Virus record (IMG/VR): IMGVR_UViG_3300045988_074608
Direction: 5' to 3' (one strand)
From: a virus
DNA length: 64,000 nucleotides
In this document: piece by piece, positions 2,734 to 25,720 of the stretch
How positions within the stretch are numbered: the stretch's first letter is position 1
How the letters are laid out: each line of letters begins with the position of its first letter
Made by a program: the position numbers and the translations under genes
The notes under the pieces: model-generated
The model's database searches: none
Told to the model about the DNA's origin: nothing
Seen by the model: only the letters and a program-made list of their open reading frames with translations

Positions 2734-3030
2734 ATGAAAAATGAAACAAAATATCTTATAGTAGATATAATAGGACTTGTTCTTATTATCTGTCTTTTAG
2801 CAATTTCAGTAACTGCACAATGCTCAACTGATAGTGATAACAAGAGGTTAACTGAAATAATTGAGAGACAGAAGAAGCTTATTGAAAAATATAAGCAATT
2901 CGAAGACATATCTGTACAAATCTACATTAACCAAGTAGATAGTACAGGTGATACATTCGATTCTTCCGACGATGGAGTGTTATTTTGGAACACTCTGTCG
3001 GAAATAGATAGTTTGAAAAACTTAAAGTAG
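2734..3030 (+). CDS. small N-terminally anchored protein (98 aa)
   Basis: One N-terminal hydrophobic helix. The ORF ends on TAG (3028-3030). Confidence 0.5.
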   Translation: MKNETKYLIVDIIGLVLIICLLAISVTAQCSTDSDNKRLTEIIERQKKLIEKYKQFEDISVQIYINQVDSTGDTFDSSDDGVLFWNTLSEIDSLKNLK

Positions 3031-8263: not shown

Positions 8264-8387
8264 TGAAATCGTTTGAGTATGAGTTAATTATGTAGGACGA
8301 GGGTTCGAATCCCTCCACGTCCACTCTTATTTATATATAAGGGCGTGACCGGTTTTGACTGCATAAGGAAGTAAATACGAGATTTCA
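8264..8387 (+). ncRNA. circularly permuted tmRNA-like tRNA-like domain plus helix-2-like stem
   Basis: 3' half first: TTATGTA-GGAC-GAGGG-TTCGAAT-CCCTC-CACGTCC-A (8288-8323). A 17-nt linker follows, then the 5' half GGGCGTG-ACCGGTTTTGAC-TGCATAA (8341-8366). The acceptor pairs 7/7 with G8343:T8320 as G3:U70. Flanks pair 8288-8294/8360-8366, 8277-8280/8375-8378 and 8264-8270/8381-8387. Confidence 0.5.
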
Positions 8388-8481
8388 AAAATCGATAAAT
8401 CAGAACAATAACATTGTTGACTATACTCACGTAGCGTGAGTATAAGTCCCGACAATTCCTTGAGTCGGTTGGAAGAATAGG

Positions 8482-18338: not shown

Positions 18339-20246
18339 GTAATACATAACAAAACGGTCATGATTTACGATATCGAAGTTTTTCCTAACACATTTCATTG
18401 TGTGCTATTAAATACAGATAATGAGGAATTATATAAGTTTGAAATATCTGAAAGAAAAAATCAAATACGAGAACTTGTACAATTCTTTACAAATCCTAAA
18501 TACTTATTATGTGGATATAATAACAAACATTACGATGATGTTATTATTAATTACATTATAGATTACCTAGATATAATGCTTTGTAAAAGTATATATGATG
18601 TAACATTATCTTTATTTAATTTATCACAGACGATAATTAATTTGGAAGACGGAAATATTAGTAAAATCAAAAGATGGAAATATGCTAATTATTTCGAATC
18701 AATGGATCTGCTCACAATGATGTTTAGTTCAAAACTCCGTGTTGGATTAAAATCAATGCAGATAACAATGCAATATCAGAATGTACAAGAATATTCTGGA
18801 GATTTTGGTAGTTTTTTACCGAAAGATAAAATTGATGAGATGATTAGTTACAACATTAACGATGTAAAATCGACATATTCACTTTTTAATTACCTTGTTA
18901 AAAATGGAGATATCGATTTGAGATTGTTTATAGAACAAGAGTACGGTTTTAACGCCCTGTCAATGGACAGTGTTAAGTTTGGAGAAACATTGATAGCTAA
19001 AAAAGTTTGTGAAGAATTACACATAAACAAAAGACAACTAGAACAAATGCGATCTCCAATGGACAACATACCATTGAAGGACGTTATATTACCGTTTATA
19101 CGATATAAAAATCCAAAGTTTCAGGAAGCTTTAGAAGATATGAAAAAACAAATAGTATCTTCTAAAAACAAAAAACCTGGAGAAAAAAACTACGAGAACA
19201 AGTTTGTCGTCTCGGGTGTACGATATTCGATTGGCGTAGGCGGAATTCATTCATTGAATGAACCACGAATATACGTTCCTAAAGAAGATGAATATTTGGG
19301 TCACTTAGATGTGGCTTCAATGTATCCGTCATTCATCGTGCGCTATGGGTGGTTTCCTAGGCACTTAGGTAAAGCAGGTCTGGCTGTATATACTCAAATA
19401 TACCATGAGAGAATACAAGCTAAACATAGCGGACAGAAACAAAAGAATTTAGCACTAAAACTAACTTTAAATTCTGTCACAGGAAAAATGCAACAAGAGA
19501 CTAGTTGGATGTACGATCCATTTAGTGTGTTTAAGATCAGGATAAACGGGCAATTAATCCTACTAATGTTGGCAGATTTATTACTACAACATTCTTGTGA
19601 GATTGTGCAAGTAAACACTGATGGTGTAATGTTTATTGCTAAAAAAGCGTACAAAGATGCTATAATGGAATCGGTAGCTAAACTTGAGCAATTAACAAAA
19701 CTCTCTTTTGAAGCAGATAGCTATGAAGCGTTTTATCAGTTCGCTGTCAACGACTACTTTGGTGTGGTTGACGGATTTTCTCAATCTAGAAATCCAAAAC
19801 TGATAGAAAAAAAAGGTATGTTTATAACAGAACCTGTGTTGGGTAAAGGATTAGCACCAACCATTATCCCAGAGGCTGTTATAAACTACTTTGTATATAA
19901 CATTCCAGTAGAAGATACAATACGCAATTGTAATGATATACGTAAATTCTTAATGTCACAACGAGTAGATAAAAAGTTTAAAGTTGAATATGACGATAAA
20001 TATATACAAAGAATTAATCGCTGGTATGCTAGTACAAATGGATGTTATCTATATACAGTAGATGAATCTAAAACACCTGTAAAATACTCAAATCTATTAA
20101 AGAAGAGTGGTGTTACGATTTTAAATTACATAGATGACATATCCACAAAAAACAGAAAAATTAACTATCCTTACTATATAAGTGAGGCACGAAAAATAAT
20201 AGATCAGTTGGTATGTAGACAATTAGATCTATTCCAGTCTTGTTAA
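18336..20246 (+). CDS. family B DNA polymerase with 3'-5' exonuclease domain
   Basis: Exo I DIEVFPN, Exo II-like YNNKHYDD, Exo III YNINDVKS, motif A DVASMYPS, motif B KLTLNSVTGK, motif C VNTDGV. Confidence 0.9.
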   Translation: MVIHNKTVMIYDIEVFPNTFHCVLLNTDNEELYKFEISERKNQIRELVQFFTNPKYLLCGYNNKHYDDVIINYIIDYLDIMLCKSIYDVTLSLFNLSQTIINLEDGNISKIKRWKYANYFESMDLLTMMFSSKLRVGLKSMQITMQYQNVQEYSGDFGSFLPKDKIDEMISYNINDVKSTYSLFNYLVKNGDIDLRLFIEQEYGFNALSMDSVKFGETLIAKKVCEELHINKRQLEQMRSPMDNIPLKDVILPFIRYKNPKFQEALEDMKKQIVSSKNKKPGEKNYENKFVVSGVRYSIGVGGIHSLNEPRIYVPKEDEYLGHLDVASMYPSFIVRYGWFPRHLGKAGLAVYTQIYHERIQAKHSGQKQKNLALKLTLNSVTGKMQQETSWMYDPFSVFKIRINGQLILLMLADLLLQHSCEIVQVNTDGVMFIAKKAYKDAIMESVAKLEQLTKLSFEADSYEAFYQFAVNDYFGVVDGFSQSRNPKLIEKKGMFITEPVLGKGLAPTIIPEAVINYFVYNIPVEDTIRNCNDIRKFLMSQRVDKKFKVEYDDKYIQRINRWYASTNGCYLYTVDESKTPVKYSNLLKKSGVTILNYIDDISTKNRKINYPYYISEARKIIDQLVCRQLDLFQSC

Positions 20247-20262
20247 CCAAAGAGTATAAGAG

Positions 20263-20832
20263 ATGATAGTAGAATTAAATACTAAACTTCTGGAACTTCC
20301 AGAAAAAATCAATTTGAATCAGTTAGTATTCCTTAGTATGGTATTGAATAAGAATCAAAGTACATATGATCAAGACGTTCGCAAGTTAGTCAGCCTTATG
20401 CGTGACGACGAAATATCATACTTAATCGAGCAGGGTTTGGTTACTTCGATGGAGAGAAGTAAATCTATACTATACAAAGCAAGTCAAAAACTTGAAGACT
20501 TTATGGAACCTCCTAAAGATCTATTTGACTTGTTTTATGAAATGTATCCTATATATGTCTTACGTTCTGACGGAAGTAAATCTTTCTTAAGGACAAATAA
20601 AAACAAATGTCGTAACCTTTATAATATACTTACGGGAGGTAATAACGCAATGTGTGAACATATTAATAAATGTTTACAGTTCGAAATCGATAAAAAGATG
20701 AAAACTGGAAAGATGTGTTATATGAAAACAATGTTGCGGTGGTTACAAGATAGACAATGGGAAACCTCAGATGAAGAAATGAATAATACAGAACAAACAA
20801 AACAGAGCAGTTATGGAACAGAGTTGTTTTAA
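20263..20832 (+). CDS. hypothetical replication-module protein (189 aa)
   Basis: Lies between the polymerase and helicase genes. A loader or initiator role is guessed from position only. Confidence 0.5.
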   Translation: MIVELNTKLLELPEKINLNQLVFLSMVLNKNQSTYDQDVRKLVSLMRDDEISYLIEQGLVTSMERSKSILYKASQKLEDFMEPPKDLFDLFYEMYPIYVLRSDGSKSFLRTNKNKCRNLYNILTGGNNAMCEHINKCLQFEIDKKMKTGKMCYMKTMLRWLQDRQWETSDEEMNNTEQTKQSSYGTELF

Positions 20833-21763
20833 ATTAAAAATTAGACCAATATCTGTTGTAACTGATGAAGCGTTGAGTTATATAAAAGCTAGAAAAGATA
20901 ATGATATAACATCATTAGCTACTAGATGGAAGAAACTCAATATGTGTTGTATGGGAGGTATTGAACCAAATTGTGTATACACAATAGCAGGTATTTCTGG
21001 AAGTGGTAAGAGTTCGTTTGCAAATCTTATCGCTACTGATTTAATTGATTATAATCCAAAGGTTAACACTATTGTTTTGGTGTTTTCATTAGAAATGGTT
21101 GGATTTAGGCAAATCGGAAGAACGCTTTCTAATAAGTTACGGAAAACGACTTCTTATTTGTATAGTTCTCAACAGAACCTAGACGATTCTACATTTGAAC
21201 AAGTCGTCAATGTTTCCAATCAAATCAGGAATTATCCTATTTATTTTGTGGATGATCCTGGTACACCTGAACAAATAGATGAAACAATTCAAGCTTTTTA
21301 TTCTAAGTATGTAAAAGGGCAAAATAAGCATTTTGTAATTATGTATGATCACACTTTGCTTACTAAACGTATAGGAAGTGCTATTGAAACTTTGAGTGCA
21401 TTACAAGAAGTTTTCATTAGAACTAAAAAATTGCCTTTGACATCTATTATACAGTTGTCACAAATGAATAGAAGGATTGAAGAACCTGAAAGGATTAATA
21501 ACCCTGCTTCTCATTATCCTATGAGAAGTGATTTATCATCGTCTGATTCAATATTTCAAGCTAGTGATTATGTGCTTGTTATACATAGACCTGAGATATT
21601 AGGAATTCAAGAGTATGGTCCAAATCGTTTACCTACTACAGATAAGGTATATATCCACATCTTAAAGAATAGAGATGCTGGAAAACCTTGTATTTTGCAA
21701 TTTGAAAACGACCTTGCTTTTAATAACCTGATAGAATCAGAAATTGTTTCAGATAATAATTAA
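20813..21763 (+). CDS. DnaB-family (RecA-fold) replicative helicase
   Basis: Walker A GISGSGKSSF, Walker B-like VIMYDHTLL, and SQMNR resembling the DnaB SQLSR motif. Confidence 0.75.
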   Translation: MEQSCFKLKIRPISVVTDEALSYIKARKDNDITSLATRWKKLNMCCMGGIEPNCVYTIAGISGSGKSSFANLIATDLIDYNPKVNTIVLVFSLEMVGFRQIGRTLSNKLRKTTSYLYSSQQNLDDSTFEQVVNVSNQIRNYPIYFVDDPGTPEQIDETIQAFYSKYVKGQNKHFVIMYDHTLLTKRIGSAIETLSALQEVFIRTKKLPLTSIIQLSQMNRRIEEPERINNPASHYPMRSDLSSSDSIFQASDYVLVIHRPEILGIQEYGPNRLPTTDKVYIHILKNRDAGKPCILQFENDLAFNNLIESEIVSDNN

Positions 21764-21783
21764 CATTTTAAAGGCTGAAAATT

Positions 21784-22233
21784 ATGAAGAAGTATACTTT
21801 TAAACTCGATAATACCAAGAAGATTAACAATGAGTCAACTAACAATTATTCTAAGATTATTAATGATATTATATCTACTAATGTAATTAAGAATAACCCT
21901 TATTTCGATAGTATTCCAAGTACTACGAAGAATAAGACGATTAACATTGATATTCATCTCGGTAAGAAGTCTCCGAAGTATGATAAGAAGAGTTTTGATT
22001 ATGGTGACATTTTCGATGCTCTTAAGACTATTTACAATTTGAAGAATGAGAAACCTATGTATGACTTTAAGTTGTATGATGGTACTCCTGTGAAGATGTT
22101 CTCTGATGAGATTCAGATTGGTTATGATCTGATCCCACTTACTGGATTTACTCGTGAGTACTACAATTCTCTTTCTGAGAGTACGCGTAAGCACATTATC
22201 GATATCACTATTGATATTCAGCGAGCAGCGTAA
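21784..22233 (+). CDS. hypothetical protein (149 aa)
   Basis: ATG ORF; the antisense ORF 21835-22254 looks spurious. Confidence 0.5.
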   Translation: MKKYTFKLDNTKKINNESTNNYSKIINDIISTNVIKNNPYFDSIPSTTKNKTINIDIHLGKKSPKYDKKSFDYGDIFDALKTIYNLKNEKPMYDFKLYDGTPVKMFSDEIQIGYDLIPLTGFTREYYNSLSESTRKHIIDITIDIQRAA

Positions 22234-22274
22234 TTGTAAATAATGAACTAACAAATAAATAGATGCATTGACAC

Positions 22275-22596
22275 ATGAGCGGTTTTATATTACCTACACA
22301 ACCAATTCCAGCAGTTTCAACAAATCCTAAATTTTTAATTTGTTATGGTCGTCCAAAAGCAGGAAAGACTAGTGCATTAGCACAGCTTCCTAATAATCTA
22401 ATTATAGATTTAGAGGGAGGATCACAATTTATAGACGCAATGGCAGTACAAGCCAGAAGCGTTGGAGATTTAGGAGAAATTGCACAAGCAATCAGAGCTA
22501 AAAACTCTGAAACAAAGCATAATTTTTATAAGCATATAACAATAGATAATGCTACTCGATTAGAGGAGATGTGTCTACCGTATGCAAAGACACTCT
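22275..22596 (+). CDS. Sak4/AAA_24-type ssDNA-annealing ATPase, exon 1
   Basis: Walker A GRPKAGKTS, then IIDLEGG and ITIDNATRLEE. Family-like sequence ends near ..PYAKTL. The predicted 5' splice site follows T22596. Confidence 0.6.
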
Positions 22597-23419
22597 GTAA
22601 TAATGGAGCTTTAAATAGAAATATTTATAGAAAATTCCGTGAATTGCTGGAACCTCTTTCATTTGTCATAATATATAATAATATGAAAGAAAATCAGCAG
22701 CATTTATGAAACAAGAAACTTTAAAAAAGTATATTGGTAAAACATGGGGTGTTTTAACTTGTTTAGGAATCGATCATGAAGACTACGATAAAGAAAGATA
22801 GATAAAAAGAACATATTTTAAAGTAAAATGTTCTAGATGTGGATCTGAATCTATAGTAAGAGCTGATCGTTTCTTCGGAAAATATATTCCAAAATCATGT
22901 ACATATTGTGTAAATGATTTACAAGTTGAAACTGCAAATAAAAAGTATCCTAAAAATAGAAGATTATTAAATTCAAAAATATCGAGATATACACATATCA
23001 GTAATAGAAAGGGGAAAACTGTAAAATCTTATCTTTCAAAAATTGAAGCAGAAAAGTTACTTACTTCTAAGTGCTTTTATTGTGGAAAAGAAAATGCAAT
23101 GGGAATAGATAGAATAGATTCATCTAAAGATTATACTTTGGATAATTGTGTTCCATGTTGCGGAATGTGTAATATTATGAAGAATAAATTTGATATTAAC
23201 GAATGGTTTTCTAAAATAGGAGAAATTTATAGAAATCATGTTGATAGATGTTCAACGACTATCTCGAAAGAGAGTACATCACAAGTTAATGGTGATGGAA
23301 GTGCGGAACTTCTGACTGCCAAATAGGTAAAAGAAGATGATATAGTCTATTCTGCATAGTGATATGCAGCAGTTCATAAGAGAACGTATATAGTGTTACG
23401 AGCTATATAGAATGAAAAG
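22597..23419 (+). mobile_element. putative group I intron (823 nt) carrying an HNH ORF
   Basis: The exon end CTCT can pair with the intron GGAG (22604-22607), giving U:G at the splice site. The intron ends in G23419. Joining restores one frame (..AKTLYMQTPMGKNYKGDD..). The 3' part has hairpins CTGCAT/ATGCAG and TATATAG/CTATATA. Confidence 0.55.
22706..23326 (+). CDS. HNH/His-Me-finger homing-endonuclease-like ORF inside the intron
   Basis: One frame from ATG 22706 with CxxC...CxxC (KCSRCG, SCTYCV) and GIDRIDSSKDYTLDNCVPCCGMCNIMKNK. It has one internal TAG (22799-22801) and ends on TAG (23324-23326). Confidence 0.6.
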
Positions 23420-23847
23420 ATATGCAAACACCAATGGGAAAGAATTACAAAGGAGACGATGTACGTACTTTACCAAATGGTTCTGGATATATGTATCTAA
23501 GACAAGCTGTACGCAAAGTTTTAGATATGTTTAAGAGTCTTTGTGATGAGTTTATTTTAATTGGACATGTAAAAGATGTTCAAATAGAACAAAACGGAGA
23601 AGAGCTTAATCAGATGGCATTGGATCTTGTTGGAAAACTAGGATCTATTGTATGTGGTGAAGCAGATGCTGTGGGATATGTTTATAGAAAAGGTAACGAA
23701 ACTCACATAAGCTTTAAAGGCGGTGATGGTACCATTAAAGAAGCTAGAGCACCTCATCTTAGAGGTAACGATATTATTATCGCAACTGGTAATGAAGATG
23801 GAACTATTACTACTTATTGGGACAGAATTTTTAAATCAGAAAACTAA
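23420..23847 (+). CDS. Sak4/AAA_24-type ATPase, exon 2
   Basis: ..NGSGYMYLRQ..FILIGHVKD.. continues the family pattern. The spliced product is 249 aa. Confidence 0.6.
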
Positions 23848-23855
23848 TAGAAGAT

Positions 23856-24449
23856 ATGTTTAGTACTAAAACAGCTGTATTTGACAGTTCAAACAAATAT
23901 ATGAACGCCGGTATTAATGACAATGTAACTCTTAAAGAAGTAAATGTCTCAAAATCTCCAAACGGGCGTGATTACCTTGAAATAATATTTGAAGATGCTA
24001 ATGGAGCAATGGCCTCTCTTACAGAGTGGAAAAATGAGAAGAATATGTGGATTAAAACTGATGAAGAACTTCAGCGTCGTGATAATCAGCAATTCGGACG
24101 AATGCTTCAAATTCTCAAATGTTATTTTGAAACTATTGAAGATGTAGAGCTTAATACATTTGTCGATATGATAACATGGATTAAGAGTAAACTTGATACT
24201 GTAATAAGTGGAAAGAAACTTCTACGTCTTAAAACAACATATGACAATAAAGGTTTTATTCGTGTATCAACTTATGGTATATTTGTAGAACCAATGAATG
24301 TTGAAGAAACTCAGATAGTATTAACAGGACGTGATAAAACAACACGACCAGAAATAAAAGTAGATGATGAAAAGTCTACTGATCCGCTTGGCAATGCCAC
24401 TCCGGACAATACTATTGCAGAAGATAAAAAGGATGATCTACCCTTCTAA
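23856..24449 (+). CDS. single-stranded DNA-binding protein
   Basis: The C-terminal acidic tip ..KKDDLPF matches the bacterial/phage SSB tail (E. coli DDDIPF). Replication-module context. Confidence 0.6.
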   Translation: MFSTKTAVFDSSNKYMNAGINDNVTLKEVNVSKSPNGRDYLEIIFEDANGAMASLTEWKNEKNMWIKTDEELQRRDNQQFGRMLQILKCYFETIEDVELNTFVDMITWIKSKLDTVISGKKLLRLKTTYDNKGFIRVSTYGIFVEPMNVEETQIVLTGRDKTTRPEIKVDDEKSTDPLGNATPDNTIAEDKKDDLPF

Positions 24450-24485
24450 TGTAGATCTGGTGGAGCGTTGACTCCAGTCAACTAA

Positions 24486-24531
24486 GAATGGTAAATATGA
24501 ACTATGGGAGGATCGCAACCTCCTACCATTC
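24486..24531 (+). ncRNA. acceptor/hairpin minihelix in the primase leader (M3)
   Basis: GAATGGTA-[13 nt]-GGAGG-ATCGCAA-CCTCC-TACCATTC. The 8-bp closing stem abuts the hairpin. The loop is not T-loop-like. Confidence 0.35.
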
Positions 24532-24655
24532 CACAGGAAGCTCTATAAAGTCGACGTGAGGAGCAACGTAACACACAGGTTTTCTAATCGATGTAAATCT
24601 AGCCCTGTTTCCAAGCGTATCTTGGATGTGTTCTGACACATGTGTGTATGTCAGG

Positions 24656-24708
24656 GAGAATGGCACAATTGCAAAGGGTGCATAGAAAGTTCGATTCTTT
24701 CCATTCTA
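24656..24708 (+). ncRNA. D-armless tRNA-like leader element upstream of the primase gene (M4)
   Basis: (G)AGAATG-GCAC-AATTGCAAAGG-GTGC-ATA-GAAAG-TTCGATT-CTTTC-CATTCT(A). It has a canonical T loop and shares the loop octamer TTGCAAAG with M6. It ends 28 nt before ATG 24737. Confidence 0.5.
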
Positions 24709-24736
24709 CAAATATTTAGAGCTAAAAGCCAATAAT

Positions 24737-25720
24737 ATGTATAGTACAAAAAAAGCTACAATTGATACATCTTTACGAGATATCATAGAGATGTTAGATG
24801 ATTATGATATCTACTCATATTATATCGGATCTTTTAAAATAAATAAACTTATGAATAGTCCTTTGCGTAATGATGATAAAAATCCATCATTCGCAGTATT
24901 TGTAGGACGAGAAGGTCGTTTATTTTTTAAAGATCATGGTAACGGAGTAGGTGGAAACGCTATAACGTTTGTAAAAACTATTTGTAATATACAATCAAAA
25001 GAAGAATTAGAAAAAGAACTTCTAAGGATTTTGCGAAAACAGAATCCTAATAAAGTAAAAAGGGTTAATATAAAGAAGTACGAATCTGCTCACAATACTG
25101 TAATTGGTATTGCTAGACAACCGTTTACTAATACTGATTTACAGTATTGGGGGCAGTTTCATATTTCTAAATCTACTCTTAACAAATATCGCGTTTTTAG
25201 TATAAAATATTTTCTTTGTAATGGAACCGTCAGAGGAGTCTACAAAGAAACCTGTCCTATGTATGCGTATAAAGTGTATGATAGATTTAAAATCTATAGA
25301 CCTTTAGCTTCCAAGTATACTAAATGGCGTTCTAATCTGACAAATTATGACGTTCAGGGGCTTGCTGAAATACCTCAGGGAGGAGGTGATCTTCTCATCA
25401 TTACAAAATCTTTAAAAGATGTAATGACTCTATATGAGATGGGATATAATGCTATTGCTGCATCTAGTGAAACAACATTTATTCCGGATGAGATATTGAA
25501 TAAACTTCAAACAAAATGGAAGACAATTCTCATTTTATATGATAGAGATGTAACAGGAATGAAAAAAGCTAGAGATTATAGTAGAAAATATCATTTTGAT
25601 GCATTTTTTATTAATAAAAGATTTAAAGCAAAGGATATTTCAGATGCGGTAAAAAATAATTCTTATGATAATGTAAAACAATGGTTAGATAAAGAATTAC
25701 AACGTTATGACAACCTCTAA
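24737..25720 (+). CDS. DNA primase (TOPRIM type)
   Basis: NPSFAVF..FKDHGNGVGGNAITFV N-terminal region. TOPRIM-like LIITKSLKDVMTLYEMGYNAIAASSE and ILYDRDVTG. Confidence 0.7.
   Translation: MYSTKKATIDTSLRDIIEMLDDYDIYSYYIGSFKINKLMNSPLRNDDKNPSFAVFVGREGRLFFKDHGNGVGGNAITFVKTICNIQSKEELEKELLRILRKQNPNKVKRVNIKKYESAHNTVIGIARQPFTNTDLQYWGQFHISKSTLNKYRVFSIKYFLCNGTVRGVYKETCPMYAYKVYDRFKIYRPLASKYTKWRSNLTNYDVQGLAEIPQGGGDLLIITKSLKDVMTLYEMGYNAIAASSETTFIPDEILNKLQTKWKTILILYDRDVTGMKKARDYSRKYHFDAFFINKRFKAKDISDAVKNNSYDNVKQWLDKELQRYDNL

What the first reader, a model, noticed from the sequence alone, without database searches (positions are those of the whole stretch)
22275..23847. The Sak4/AAA_24-type ATPase gene is interrupted by a putative group I intron with an HNH ORF
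The family-like sequence stops after ..LPYAKTL (near 22596) and resumes at ..NYKGDDVRTLPNGSGYMYLRQ.. in another frame. Cutting after T22596 and after G23419 removes 823 nt and restores a 249-codon ORF (..AKTL-Y-MQTPMGK..). The exon end CUCU can pair with the intron GGAG (22604-22607), placing a U:G wobble at the 5' splice site. The intron ends in G. Both are group I hallmarks. The 620-nt HNH-type ORF lies in the middle, and stable hairpins follow it.
Basis: partly seen in the sequence, partly recalled or inferred. Interest (0 to 1): 0.65.

Follow-up and report, generated by a model that had tools for sequence, protein, structure and literature searches.

The report
Mobile self-splicing intron in phage ATPase gene
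A crAss-like gut phage carries a T4-nrdB-type group I intron, with its own homing-endonuclease gene, inside its Sak4-like recombination ATPase gene; this is a well-known kind of mobile element, here confirmed in detail, with one twist: the endonuclease gene contains a recoded stop codon.

Summary
An 823-nt insertion (22597-23419) splits the Sak4/AAA_24 ATPase gene.

**Evidence for an insertion:**
- A sibling genome with 98.4% identical flanks lacks exactly these 823 nt. It encodes a protein 100% identical to the predicted spliced product.
- 24 other crAss-like homologues are uninterrupted at this site.

**Evidence for a group I intron:**
- The insert is a subgroup IA2-type group I intron homologous to the self-splicing T4/RB3 nrdB intron.
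- All helices P1-P9.2 can be placed, with a U•G at the 5' splice site and a terminal G.
- Across 8 related introns, 97.7% of pair cells form standard pairs and 38 of 63 pairs show compensatory changes.
- The Rfam group I model misses it. That model also scores the genuine T4 nrdB intron below its threshold.
- A family-specific model built without the window scores 164 bits (E 2e-41).

**The endonuclease ORF:**
- It sits in the P6 loop and runs into the catalytic core.
- It is a PacI-like variant of the HNH nuclease fold.
- The phage recodes TAG in its late genes, and a 95%-identical second copy keeps the TAG under purifying selection (dN/dS 0.14). The ORF is therefore probably intact and translated only late.

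Group I introns in this gene class of Delta-group crAss-like phages have already been reported. This is a new member of a known kind.

The parts
22275..22596 (+). Exon 1 of the Sak4-like/AAA_24 ATPase gene (codons 1-107 plus the first base of Tyr108). It contains the P-loop GRPKAGKT.
   Evidence: Pfam AAA_24 profile positions 5-86. The intron-less allele L005 is colinear up to 22594-22596.
22597..23419 (+). Group I (IA2-type) intron, 823 nt. It begins after U22596 and ends with G23419 (the terminal omega-G).
   Evidence: This exact stretch is absent from L005. Both halves are homologous to the T4/RB3 nrdB intron. The structure is supported by covariation. Model R1 scores 164 bits over 23250-23419.
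22593..22608 (+). P1. Exon CUCU plus intron GU (22593-22598) pair with AU+GGAG (22603-22608). U22596•G22605 is the wobble at the 5' splice site. The internal guide sequence is 22603-22608.
   Evidence: Read directly from the sequence and recovered by the minimum-free-energy fold of the ORF-deleted intron. The guide sequence changes with the exon at five other insertion sites: GGAU/GUCC, GCGU/GCGC, GCAGAU/GUCUGC, CCAU/GUGG and CCGU/GCGG (read by eye).
22612..22627 (+). P2 hairpin UAAAUA-GAAA-UAUUUA.
   Evidence: 5 of 6 pairs show compensatory changes among the 8 introns (helix 1).
22635..22640 (+). P3 5' strand (UUCCGU), pairing with 23303-23308.
   Evidence: Long-range helix predicted by RNAalifold. 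5 of 6 pairs are compensatory and 100% of cells are paired (helix 2).
22644..22700 (+). P4 (22644-22650 with 22694-22700) enclosing the extended P5 hairpin (22655-22662 with 22683-22690).
   Evidence: (helices 3 and 4).
22701..22707 (+). P6 5' strand, pairing with 23244-23250. It closes the loop that holds the endonuclease ORF and sequesters the A and U of the ORF's AUG (22706-22708).
   Evidence: Read directly from the sequence and recovered by the fold of the ORF-deleted RNA. Not tested by covariation because this region aligns poorly.
22706..23326 (+). Intron-encoded homing endonuclease ORF, 206 codons. It is a PacI-like HNH variant with the motif CxxC...GIDRIDSSKDY..N..CC..CN..K. An in-frame TAG lies at 22799-22801. 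The terminal TAG is at 23324-23326, in the P8 loop. The next non-TAG stop is TGA at 23360-23362, in the P9 loop.
   Evidence: phrog_1035 at 9.7e-19, plus several HNH PHROGs. A profile of 4 homologues hits PacI at E 0.0031. Copy L024 keeps the TAG and the open frame with dN/dS 0.14. No Pfam or NCBIfam HNH hit.
23244..23419 (+). 3' catalytic domain. Helix coordinates:
- P6': 23244-23250
- J6/7 and P7: 23257-23261 with 23343-23347
- P7.1: 23262-23265 with 23270-23273
- P7.2: 23277-23282 with 23292-23297
- P3': 23303-23308
- P8: 23309-23313 with 23332-23336
- J8/7: GAUAUAGUC
- P9: 23352-23358 with 23363-23369
- P9.1: 23372-23375 with 23382-23385
- P9.2: 23387-23393 with 23403-23409
- omega-G: 23419
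   Evidence: Coordinates. Pair counts. Model R1 (window excluded) aligns full length over 23250-23419 and ends exactly at G23419. Positions 23338-23386 are up to 93.9% identical to the nrdB introns of T4-like phages, 91.8% to RB3.
23420..23847 (+). Exon 2 of the Sak4-like ATPase (last two bases of Tyr108 through codon 249, plus the TAA stop).
   Evidence: Pfam AAA_24 profile positions 96-187. L005 resumes colinearity at 23420.

Best explanation
The window comes from a crAss-like phage (Crassvirales, Suoliviridae/Delta-group relative). Its Sak4-like AAA_24 recombination ATPase gene carries a mobile group I intron of the phage IA2 type. The intron is a homologue of the T4/RB3 nrdB intron.

**Shown:**
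- The 823-nt insert is a precise presence/absence polymorphism.
- It has the full group I helix set, with U•G at the 5' splice site and a terminal G.
- The helices covary across relatives that sit in different genes: DNA polymerase, terminase, nrdB and another site in Sak4.

**Inferred:**
- The pre-mRNA self-splices by the usual two guanosine-initiated transesterifications. This joins ..ACACUCU to AUAUGCAA.. and yields the 249-aa ATPase.
- The ORF looped out of P6 encodes a PacI-like HNH homing endonuclease. It cuts intron-less Sak4 alleles and spreads the intron by recombinational repair.
- This phage reads TAG as a sense codon in its late, minus-strand genes, while its early plus-strand genes use TAG as a stop. 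The single internal TAG at codon 32 of the endonuclease ORF probably blocks its translation until the late suppressor activity appears. Early transcripts are then free to fold and splice.
- Sequestration of the AUG in P6 would add to this repression.
For: **Gene split and junction**
- AAA_24 split and rejoining. Gap-free 83% alignment to cr130_1.
- L005 is the intron-less allele, with 98.4% identical flanks and a 100% identical protein.
- 24 related loci are uninterrupted at the site and all have T at position -1.

**Homology of the insert**
- Both intron halves hit the T4/RB3 nrdB intron, the 3' half also hits introns in many other phages, and each of the six homologues whose surroundings were fetched lies in a split core gene or between gene fragments.

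**Structure**
- RNAalifold predicts P2, P3, P4, P5, P7.1, P8, P9, P9.1 and P9.2 unaided. 33 of 56 pairs are compensatory.
- For the named structure including pseudoknotted P7 and P7.2: 97.7% of cells are paired, against 36-50% when partners are slid. 38 of 63 pairs have double changes, against 3-10 when slid. 0 of 500 shuffles reach the observed values.
- The single-sequence fold of the ORF-deleted intron recovers P1-P6, P7.1, P7.2, P8, P9, P9.1 and P9.2, with z = -4.0.
- Model R1, built without the window, scores 164 bits at E 1.9e-41.

**Endonuclease ORF**
- PHROG and PacI matches.
- L024 conserves the TAG codon and has no other stops or indels; dN/dS is 0.14.

**TAG recoding**
- Minus-strand ORFs carry up to 96 in-frame TAGs. 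A PHROG match at 1.3e-66, in two matched stretches, falls in an ORF that is open only if its 5 in-frame TAGs are read as sense.
- The endonuclease ORF is the only early-block plus-strand ORF of at least 100 aa with an internal TAG.
Against: - No RNA evidence of splicing is available.
- Rfam RF00028 gives no hit at E<=10. The controls show the model is insensitive to this subfamily.
- P7 and P9.1 never vary, so covariation says nothing about them.
- P6 and P1 were checked by eye and by a single-sequence fold only.
- No suppressor tRNA(CUA) is in the 64-kb window, so the amino acid inserted at TAG and the timing of readthrough are unverified.
- The exon-1 reading frame stays open for 37 codons into the intron, to TGA at 22707-22709. 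Ribosomes could therefore disturb folding. From memory, and not checked here, the T4 td intron has an early in-frame stop that prevents this.
- The endonuclease has no Pfam or NCBIfam HNH hit. Arg replaces the canonical catalytic His.
Confidence: 0.9

Rival explanations
1. The intron splices, but its endonuclease gene is dead. On this view the TAG at codon 32 is a true nonsense mutation, as in the truncated I-TevIII remnant of the T4 nrdB intron. The intron would then be an immobile passenger.
For: - Under the standard code the ORF is broken after 31 codons.
- No suppressor tRNA was found in the window.
- Early plus-strand genes here use TAG as a stop.
- Degenerate endonuclease ORFs exist in this intron family: the cr118_1 ORF is almost entirely deleted, and T4 nrdB carries only a short URF.
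Against: - A second copy 95% identical (L024) has 36 substitutions in the ORF, no indel and no further stop. It has the same TAG, although the flanking codons changed (ER*IK to DK*RK). dN/dS is 0.14.
- The 31 codons before the TAG align with the N-terminus of the cr53_1 homologue.
- The phage clearly decodes TAG elsewhere.
- No usable start codon follows the TAG before the zinc-finger region.
Confidence: 0.2
2. The gene is split rather than spliced. A free-standing endonuclease cassette divides Sak4 into two separately translated halves (144 aa and 141 aa), which assemble into an active ATPase. This would resemble the endonuclease-split nrdA of phage Aeh1.
For: - Exon 2 happens to begin with an ATG two bases after the junction (23422).
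- GenBank annotators of cr50_1 called the two halves as separate proteins.
Against: - The insert carries a complete, covarying group I core. It has U•G and omega-G exactly at the boundaries of the insertion.
- The Met at 23422 is not conserved; cr130_1 has Arg there.
- The N-terminal product would carry 37 junk residues read from the ribozyme.
Confidence: 0.03
3. The intron is a decayed, non-splicing relic and the Sak4 gene is a pseudogene in this genome.
For: - No Rfam hit.
- The exon-1 frame runs far into the intron.
Against: - Every core helix is intact. The junction segments (J6/7, J8/7, P7) are identical to those of the T4/RB3 nrdB introns, which are known from the literature (cited from memory) to self-splice.
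- The exons are 100% identical in protein to the intron-less allele.
- A second intron-bearing genome differs by only 1.8-2.8% in the ribozyme parts, against 6.3% in the ORF-only part.
Confidence: 0.04

Closest known systems
T4 / RB3 nrdB group I intron (subgroup IA2; the RB3 copy encodes I-TevIII)
   Same: - Same helix set: P1-P9.2 with P7.1/P7.2.
- Near-identical J6/7-P7 (GUUCAACGACUA), J8/7-P7' (GAUAUAGUCU), P9 and P9.1.
- The P3, P2, P8 and P9.2 helices differ only by compensatory changes.
- P1 is equally short, with a U•G.
- The ORF is looped out of P6 and ends inside the core.
   Different: - The host gene is Sak4, not nrdB.
- The host phage is a crAss-like phage of Bacteroidota, not a T-even phage.
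- P5 and P8 are longer.
- The endonuclease is unrelated in architecture. I-TevIII has an N-terminal canonical HNH motif; this one has a C-terminal PacI-like D-R...Y...N motif.
- The ORF here contains a recoded TAG.
Group I introns of Delta-group (Suoliviridae) crAss-like phages (Yutin et al. 2021, PMC7886860)
   Same: [quoted passage not shown]
- It also reports that many of these phages use TAG suppression in late genes.
- The closest intron relatives found here are in cr53_1 and cr118_1 (DNA polymerase) and cr50_1 (the same ATPase gene).
   Different: - Those introns were recognised from endonuclease domains, not from RNA structure.
- The insertion site here (Leu107/Tyr108) differs from the cr50_1 site (after ..GHTKD).
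- None of the 46 GenBank phage records that hold the gene is interrupted at the window's site: 37 cover at least 80% of the protein in one uninterrupted match, and among the listed records only cr50_1 is split, at a different site.
- That ATP_43b is this same gene is an inference. It was not verified.
Agate-phage intron endonuclease enriched in recoded TGA (Borges et al., bioRxiv 10.1101/2021.08.26.457843)
   Same: A homing endonuclease of a group I intron sits in an early gene and carries in-frame recoded stop codons. The authors proposed that this delays endonuclease production until late in infection.
   Different: - The codon is TGA to Trp in a different phage clade; here it is a single TAG in a crAss-like phage.
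- Neither case has been tested experimentally.
R.PacI, an HNH restriction endonuclease with an atypical beta-beta-alpha-metal site (PDB 3LDY/3M7K)
   Same: The motif C-x-YCG ... G[IV]DR-DS-x-x-[DG]Y ... N ... C-x-x-CN-x-x-K is shared. A profile of 4 homologues gives E 0.0031. Arg occupies the place of the canonical first His, and the Tyr is conserved.
   Different: - The match is weak (20 bits) and covers only ~60 residues.
- PacI is a restriction enzyme, not intron-encoded.
- That the Tyr acts in catalysis is recalled from the PacI literature and was not tested here.

Membership tests
Group I intron | The last exon nucleotide is U, paired with G of an internal guide sequence in P1. | tested here: met
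   U22596•G22605 lies inside a 6-bp P1. The guide sequence covaries with the exon at five other insertion sites (by eye).
Group I intron | The last intron nucleotide is G (omega-G). | tested here: met
   G23419 is fixed by the intron-less allele L005. Model R1 aligns its terminal G to 23419.
Group I intron | A conserved core of P3-P4-P5-P6 and P7-P3'-P8-P7' with the P3/P7 pseudoknot, supported by covariation. | tested here: met
   97.7% of cells are paired and 38 of 63 pairs are compensatory; slid controls give 36-50%. P7 itself is invariant, so covariation is uninformative for it. P6 was checked only on the single sequence.
Group I intron | Match to the Rfam Intron_gpI model (RF00028) at the gathering score. 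| tested here: not met
   No hit at E<=10. As a control, T4 nrdB scores 35.7 bits, RB3 31, Vi06 32.1 and nepoznato 47.3, all below the 50-bit cut-off, and the other crAss copies give no hit. This reflects low model sensitivity, not absence of the feature.
Group I intron | Guanosine-dependent self-splicing that joins the exons. | not testable with these tools
   It needs RNA data or an in vitro splicing assay.
Subgroup IA2 (T4 td / nrdB / sunY type) | Extra P7.1 and P7.2 hairpins between P7 and P3', and P9.1/P9.2 extensions (Michel and Westhof classification, cited from memory). | tested here: met
   P7.1 is at 23262-23273 and P7.2 at 23277-23297, each with compensatory changes. P9.1 and P9.2 are present. 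Direct sequence homology to the T4/RB3 nrdB intron is shown.
Mobile intron with homing endonuclease | Precise presence/absence polymorphism at one site among close relatives, with the endonuclease ORF in a peripheral loop. | tested here: met
   The window and L024 carry the intron. L005 (98.4% identical) and 23 other related loci lack it. The ORF lies in the P6 loop.
HNH (His-Me finger) endonuclease | A beta-beta-alpha-metal motif with catalytic His, a conserved Asn, and zinc-binding Cys pairs. | tested here: inconclusive
   - PHROG families phrog_1035 (annotated endonuclease VII, 9.7e-19) and HNH families at about 1e-7 match.
- A PacI profile hit has E 0.0031.
- There is no Pfam or NCBIfam HNH hit.
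- The first His is replaced by Arg (GIDRID) in all four close homologues.
- The CxxC...CCxxC cysteines and the Asn are conserved.
Sak4-like / AAA_24 ATPase | Full-length match to PF13479 and to the Sak4 PHROG. | tested here: met
   The spliced product scores 86.9 bits against PF13479 (cut-off 27) over profile positions 5-187. It matches phrog_124 'Sak4-like ssDNA annealing protein' at 1.9e-28.

The most novel reading that the evidence does not exclude
The single internal TAG in the intron's endonuclease ORF acts as a timing switch tied to the phage's genetic-code change.

- **Early in infection:** TAG terminates translation after 31 codons. The ribozyme then folds undisturbed and the ATPase mRNA is spliced.
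- **Late in infection:** the phage's TAG-decoding activity appears and the homing endonuclease is made.

The switch may be reinforced in two ways. The AUG is sequestered in P6. The exon-1 frame also terminates at UGA overlapping that AUG (AUGA), which could couple translation of the two frames. If true, a selfish element would have adapted to stop-codon recoding to copy the late-expression logic that T4 introns achieve with late promoters.
Probability: 0.45. Interest if true: 0.5.

Novelty: new member of a known kind. Interest (0 to 1): 0.3.

Why it matters
**Annotation.** Gene callers split this ATPase into two 'hypothetical' fragments plus a broken ORF. The same happens in GenBank crAss records such as cr50_1.

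**Detection.** The Rfam group I model misses AT-rich, ORF-bearing IA2 introns of gut phages. Intron counts in crAss-like phages based on Rfam will therefore be underestimates. A family-specific model finds them easily.

**Biology.**
- One intron lineage is shared between T-even coliphages and crAss-like, Lak, Vibrio and T7-like phages.
- The Sak4 gene has been invaded at three or more different sites.
- The case offers a clean natural test of how a homing endonuclease is regulated in a phage that switches its genetic code during infection. The pairing of an intron-less allele (L005) with intron-bearing alleles (window, L024) makes this test possible.

Tried and rejected
- **Rfam cmscan**, at gathering threshold on the whole window and at E<=10 on 22200-24900, found no group I hit. 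I did not take this as evidence of absence, because genuine relatives also fall below the threshold.
- **Pfam and NCBIfam on the endonuclease** gave only insignificant zinc-ribbon-like hits.
- **Intein** was rejected. The insert is in a different frame, is full of stops, and has no Hint domain.
- **Group II intron** was rejected. There is no reverse transcriptase, and the core is plainly group I.
- **A second copy of the intron in the window** was sought by BLAST and by model R1. None was found; the next best R1 hit scores 10.7 bits.
- **A suppressor tRNA** was sought in the window and in neighbouring loci. Only tRNA-Gln(UUG) and tRNA-Leu(UAA) are in the window, and ordinary tRNAs in relatives.
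- **P10 pairing** between the start of exon 2 and the guide region gives at most 2 bp, by eye. It is not claimed.
- **The MAFFT alignment A1** misregisters the exon/P1 region, and P7.1/P7.2 of T4 and RB3. P1 was therefore compared by hand, and the few 'unpaired' cells in helix 7 are alignment artefacts.
Full report
**What is in the sequence.** The plus strand has an ORF at 22275-22709 and another, in a different frame, at 23422-23847. Against Pfam AAA_24 (PF13479), the first matches profile positions 5-86 and the second matches 96-187. Joining them after T22596 and G23419 gives a 249-aa protein that matches positions 5-187 in one stretch at 86.9 bits. It also matches phrog_124, 'Sak4-like ssDNA annealing protein', at 1.9e-28. 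The joined protein aligns without a gap across the junction (..LPYAKTL-Y-MQTPMGK..) to the uninterrupted 244-aa protein of crAss-like phage cr130_1, at 83% identity.

**Exact boundaries and polymorphism.** A scan of IMG/VR found locus L005 (IMGVR_UViG_3300045988_062669). Its DNA is 98.4% identical to window 19775-22594 and 23420-24551, and it lacks the 823 nt in between. Its protein is 100% identical to the predicted spliced product. The empty site reads GACACTT|TATATG, and the spliced window sequence would read GACACTCT|ATATG. The boundaries (intron 22597-23419, preceded by U, ending in G) cannot be moved by a single base. A second genome, L024, carries the same intron at the same site at about 95% identity. 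Twenty-four other crAss-like homologues, L005 among them, are uninterrupted at this site, and all have T at the last exon position. In the GenBank phage collection 46 records hold the gene and none is interrupted at the window's site: 37 cover at least 80% of the protein in one uninterrupted match, and among the listed records only cr50_1 is split, at a different site. This sporadic but precise distribution is what a mobile intron produces.

**What the insert is.** BLAST of the insert shows that its last ~170 nt (23250-23419) resemble sequences in more than 500 phage records. The six homologues whose surroundings were fetched all lie within or between fragments of core genes:
- DNA polymerase in cr53_1, cr118_1 and Salmonella phage Vi06;
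- large terminase in Escherichia phage nepoznato;
- thymidylate synthase in a Vibrio phage;
- an unannotated stretch of Lak-B1 megaphage, flanked by open reading frame.

T-even phage hits lie under or beside nrdB annotations in the hit table. Positions 23338-23386 are up to 93.9% identical to the nrdB introns of T4-like phages (91.8% to RB3). The 5' part (22609-22652) is about 80% identical to the 5' part of the same intron, about 1 kb upstream in RB3, as expected for the two halves of an ORF-containing intron. From established knowledge, the T4 and RB3 nrdB introns are experimentally proven self-splicing group I introns.

**Structure.** By homology and direct inspection, every group I helix can be placed (coordinates):

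| Helix | Coordinates |
|---|---|
| P1 | 22593-22598 / 22603-22608, with U22596•G22605 at the splice site |
| P2 | 22612-22617 / 22622-22627 |
| P3 | 22635-22640 / 23303-23308 |
| P4 | 22644-22650 / 22694-22700 |
| P5 | 22655-22662 / 22683-22690 |
| P6 | 22701-22707 / 23244-23250 |
| P7 | 23257-23261 / 23343-23347 |
| P7.1 | 23262-23265 / 23270-23273 |
| P7.2 | 23277-23282 / 23292-23297 |
| P8 | 23309-23313 / 23332-23336 |
| P9 | 23352-23358 / 23363-23369 |
| P9.1 | 23372-23375 / 23382-23385 |
| P9.2 | 23387-23393 / 23403-23409 |
| omega-G | 23419 |

P7.1/P7.2 and P9.1/P9.2 are the marks of the phage IA2 subgroup. I aligned ORF-deleted versions of eight introns: window, cr50_1, RB3, T4, cr53_1, cr118_1, nepoznato and Lak-B1.
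- RNAalifold on its own predicted P2, the long-range P3, P4, P5, P7.1, P8, P9, P9.1 and P9.2. 33 of 56 pairs showed compensatory double changes.
- I then counted the named structure, with the pseudoknotted P7 and P7.2 added. 97.7% of cells were paired and 38 of 63 pairs had changes on both sides.
- When the 3' partners were slid by 1-3 columns, 36-50% of cells were paired and 3-10 pairs had double changes. No shuffle out of 500 reached the observed values.
- P7 and P9.1 are invariant, so they carry no covariation information.
- The guide sequence changes with the exon at each insertion site, always with U•G at the splice site: CUCU/GGAG here, GGAU/GUCC in cr50_1, GCGU/GCGC in nrdB, GCAGAU/GUCUGC in the cr53_1 polymerase, CCAU/GUGG in nepoznato and CCGU/GCGG in Lak-B1 (read by eye).
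- The ORF-deleted window intron folded on its own recovers P1-P6, P7.1, P7.2, P8, P9, P9.1 and P9.2, at -72.7 kcal/mol and z = -4.0.

**The Rfam test.** RF00028 gives no hit at gathering threshold, or at E<=10 on the region. As a control I ran the same search on genuine relatives. T4 nrdB scores 35.7 bits, RB3 31, Vi06 32.1 and nepoznato 47.3, all below the 50-bit cut-off. The other crAss copies give nothing. The negative therefore reflects model sensitivity. A covariance model of the 3' domain, built from seven relatives without the window, scores 164 bits (E 1.9e-41) on 23250-23419. It aligns full length, ends exactly at G23419, and finds no second copy in the window.

**The endonuclease ORF.** The ORF at 22706-23326 lies in the P6 loop. 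Its AUG is partly buried in P6. Its 3' end runs through P7, P7.1, P7.2 and P3', and stops in the P8 loop. It matches phrog_1035 at 9.7e-19 and several HNH PHROGs, but no Pfam or NCBIfam HNH model. Its C-terminal motif is CFYCG...GIDRIDSSKDY..DNCVPCCGMCNIMKN. This motif is shared with the cr53_1 and cr50_1 intron ORFs and, weakly, with restriction enzyme PacI (E 0.59 for the single sequence, 0.0031 for a 4-sequence profile). Arg stands where canonical HNH enzymes have the catalytic His. It is best described as a PacI-like variant of the His-Me finger, and membership in HNH proper remains inconclusive.

**The in-frame TAG.** Several results argue that it is read as sense rather than marking a dead gene.
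- **The phage recodes TAG.** With TAG as sense, the minus-strand block 28595-63718 resolves into ORFs of 5957, 2110, 1714 and 704 codons. These carry 96, 31, 25 and 14 in-frame TAGs respectively. A 285-aa ORF that is open only when its 5 in-frame TAGs are read as sense matches phrog_33740 at 1.3e-66, in two matched stretches.
- **The L024 copy keeps the TAG.** Its flanking codons changed (ER*IK to DK*RK). It has 36 substitutions in the ORF, no indel and no other stop. dN/dS is 0.14.
- **Sequence before the TAG is conserved.** The 31 codons before the TAG align with homologues, and no usable start follows the TAG.

In the plus-strand early block, TAG otherwise occurs only upstream of starts or as a terminator with a nearby back-up stop. 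The endonuclease ORF is the only early-block ORF of at least 100 aa with an internal TAG. The likely consequence is that the endonuclease is made only when TAG decoding is active, that is, late in infection. Borges et al. proposed the same logic for TGA in an Agate-phage intron endonuclease. No suppressor tRNA is in the 64-kb window, so this step remains an inference.

**Comparison with what is known.** Yutin et al. [quoted passage not shown] They also report that many of these phages use TAG suppression in late genes. The present element is therefore a new, well-resolved member of a known kind. What is added here:
- the RNA-level proof and its IA2/nrdB affiliation;
- the exact empty-site allele;
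- the finding that the same gene is invaded at other sites: cr50_1 after ..GHTKD (L001 1933-2937), and a 254-nt ORF-less insert in the P-loop codon of L025-L027;
- the recoded codon in the endonuclease ORF.

**Verdict.** Confidence is high, about 0.9, that this is a functional group I intron. It is moderate, about 0.6-0.7, that the endonuclease is intact through TAG readthrough. Interest is modest.

Noticed in passing
window 28595-63718, minus strand: TAG is clearly a sense codon in the late/structural block. With TAG read through, the ORFs are 5957, 2110, 1714, 704 and 591 codons long and hold 96, 31, 25, 14 and 6 in-frame TAGs. Plus-strand early genes use TAG as a stop, often with a TAA or TGA back-up a few codons later (for example at 3028, 9408 and 16168). 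No tRNA(CUA) is in the window.
   Followed up: partly
window 8264-8439 (+): Rfam 'tmRNA_permuted' (RF04321) hit at 62 bits, above its 47-bit gathering score, in a phage genome. ARAGORN does not call a tmRNA here.
   Followed up: no
window 24450-24736: A 287-nt non-coding stretch lies between the gene ending at 24449 and the primase gene (24737-). It has a tRNA-like T-arm (GAAAG-UUCGAUU-CUUUC near 24686-24702), but neither ARAGORN nor Rfam calls a tRNA. Relatives carry different tRNAs at this spot: Gln(UUG)+Leu(UAA) in cr130_1, Leu(GAG) in L006, Lys(UUU) in L007, and an odd 4-base anticodon call in L009.
   Followed up: partly
L001 (cr50_1, NC_055868) 1933-2937: A homologous intron with a related endonuclease ORF sits at a different site of the same Sak4-like gene, after ..LIGHTKD. 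Its P1 is GGAU/GUCC. GenBank annotates the pieces as three separate proteins.
   Followed up: partly
L025 2247-2500 (also L026, L027): A 254-nt ORF-less insertion lies inside the P-loop codons (..PKAG|KST..) of the same gene. It is preceded by U and ends in G, so it may be a compact group I intron of another type. Rfam gives no hit at E<=0.1, and it shows no similarity to the nrdB-type core.
   Followed up: no
window 22597-22709: The exon-1 reading frame stays open for 37 codons into the intron, through the 5' strands of P1-P6. It ends at TGA 22707-22709, which overlaps the endonuclease ATG 22706-22708 (ATGA). This could mean termination-reinitiation coupling, or ribosome interference with folding. 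In contrast, cr50_1 has TAA immediately after its 5' splice site.
   Followed up: no
L088 (Lak-B1, MK250020) about 640-800 and 1591-1758: Two group I 3' domains of this family, each with a GAUAUAGUCU and P9.1/P9.2-like hairpins, lie within about 1 kb. This suggests two introns close together in one megaphage gene.
   Followed up: no
window 22595 versus L005 2820-2822: The two intron-bearing alleles (window, L024) have CTC for Leu107. The 98.4%-identical intron-less allele has CTT, a synonymous difference at position -2 of the insertion site. This is consistent with co-conversion, or with a change in the endonuclease target or in P1.
   Followed up: no
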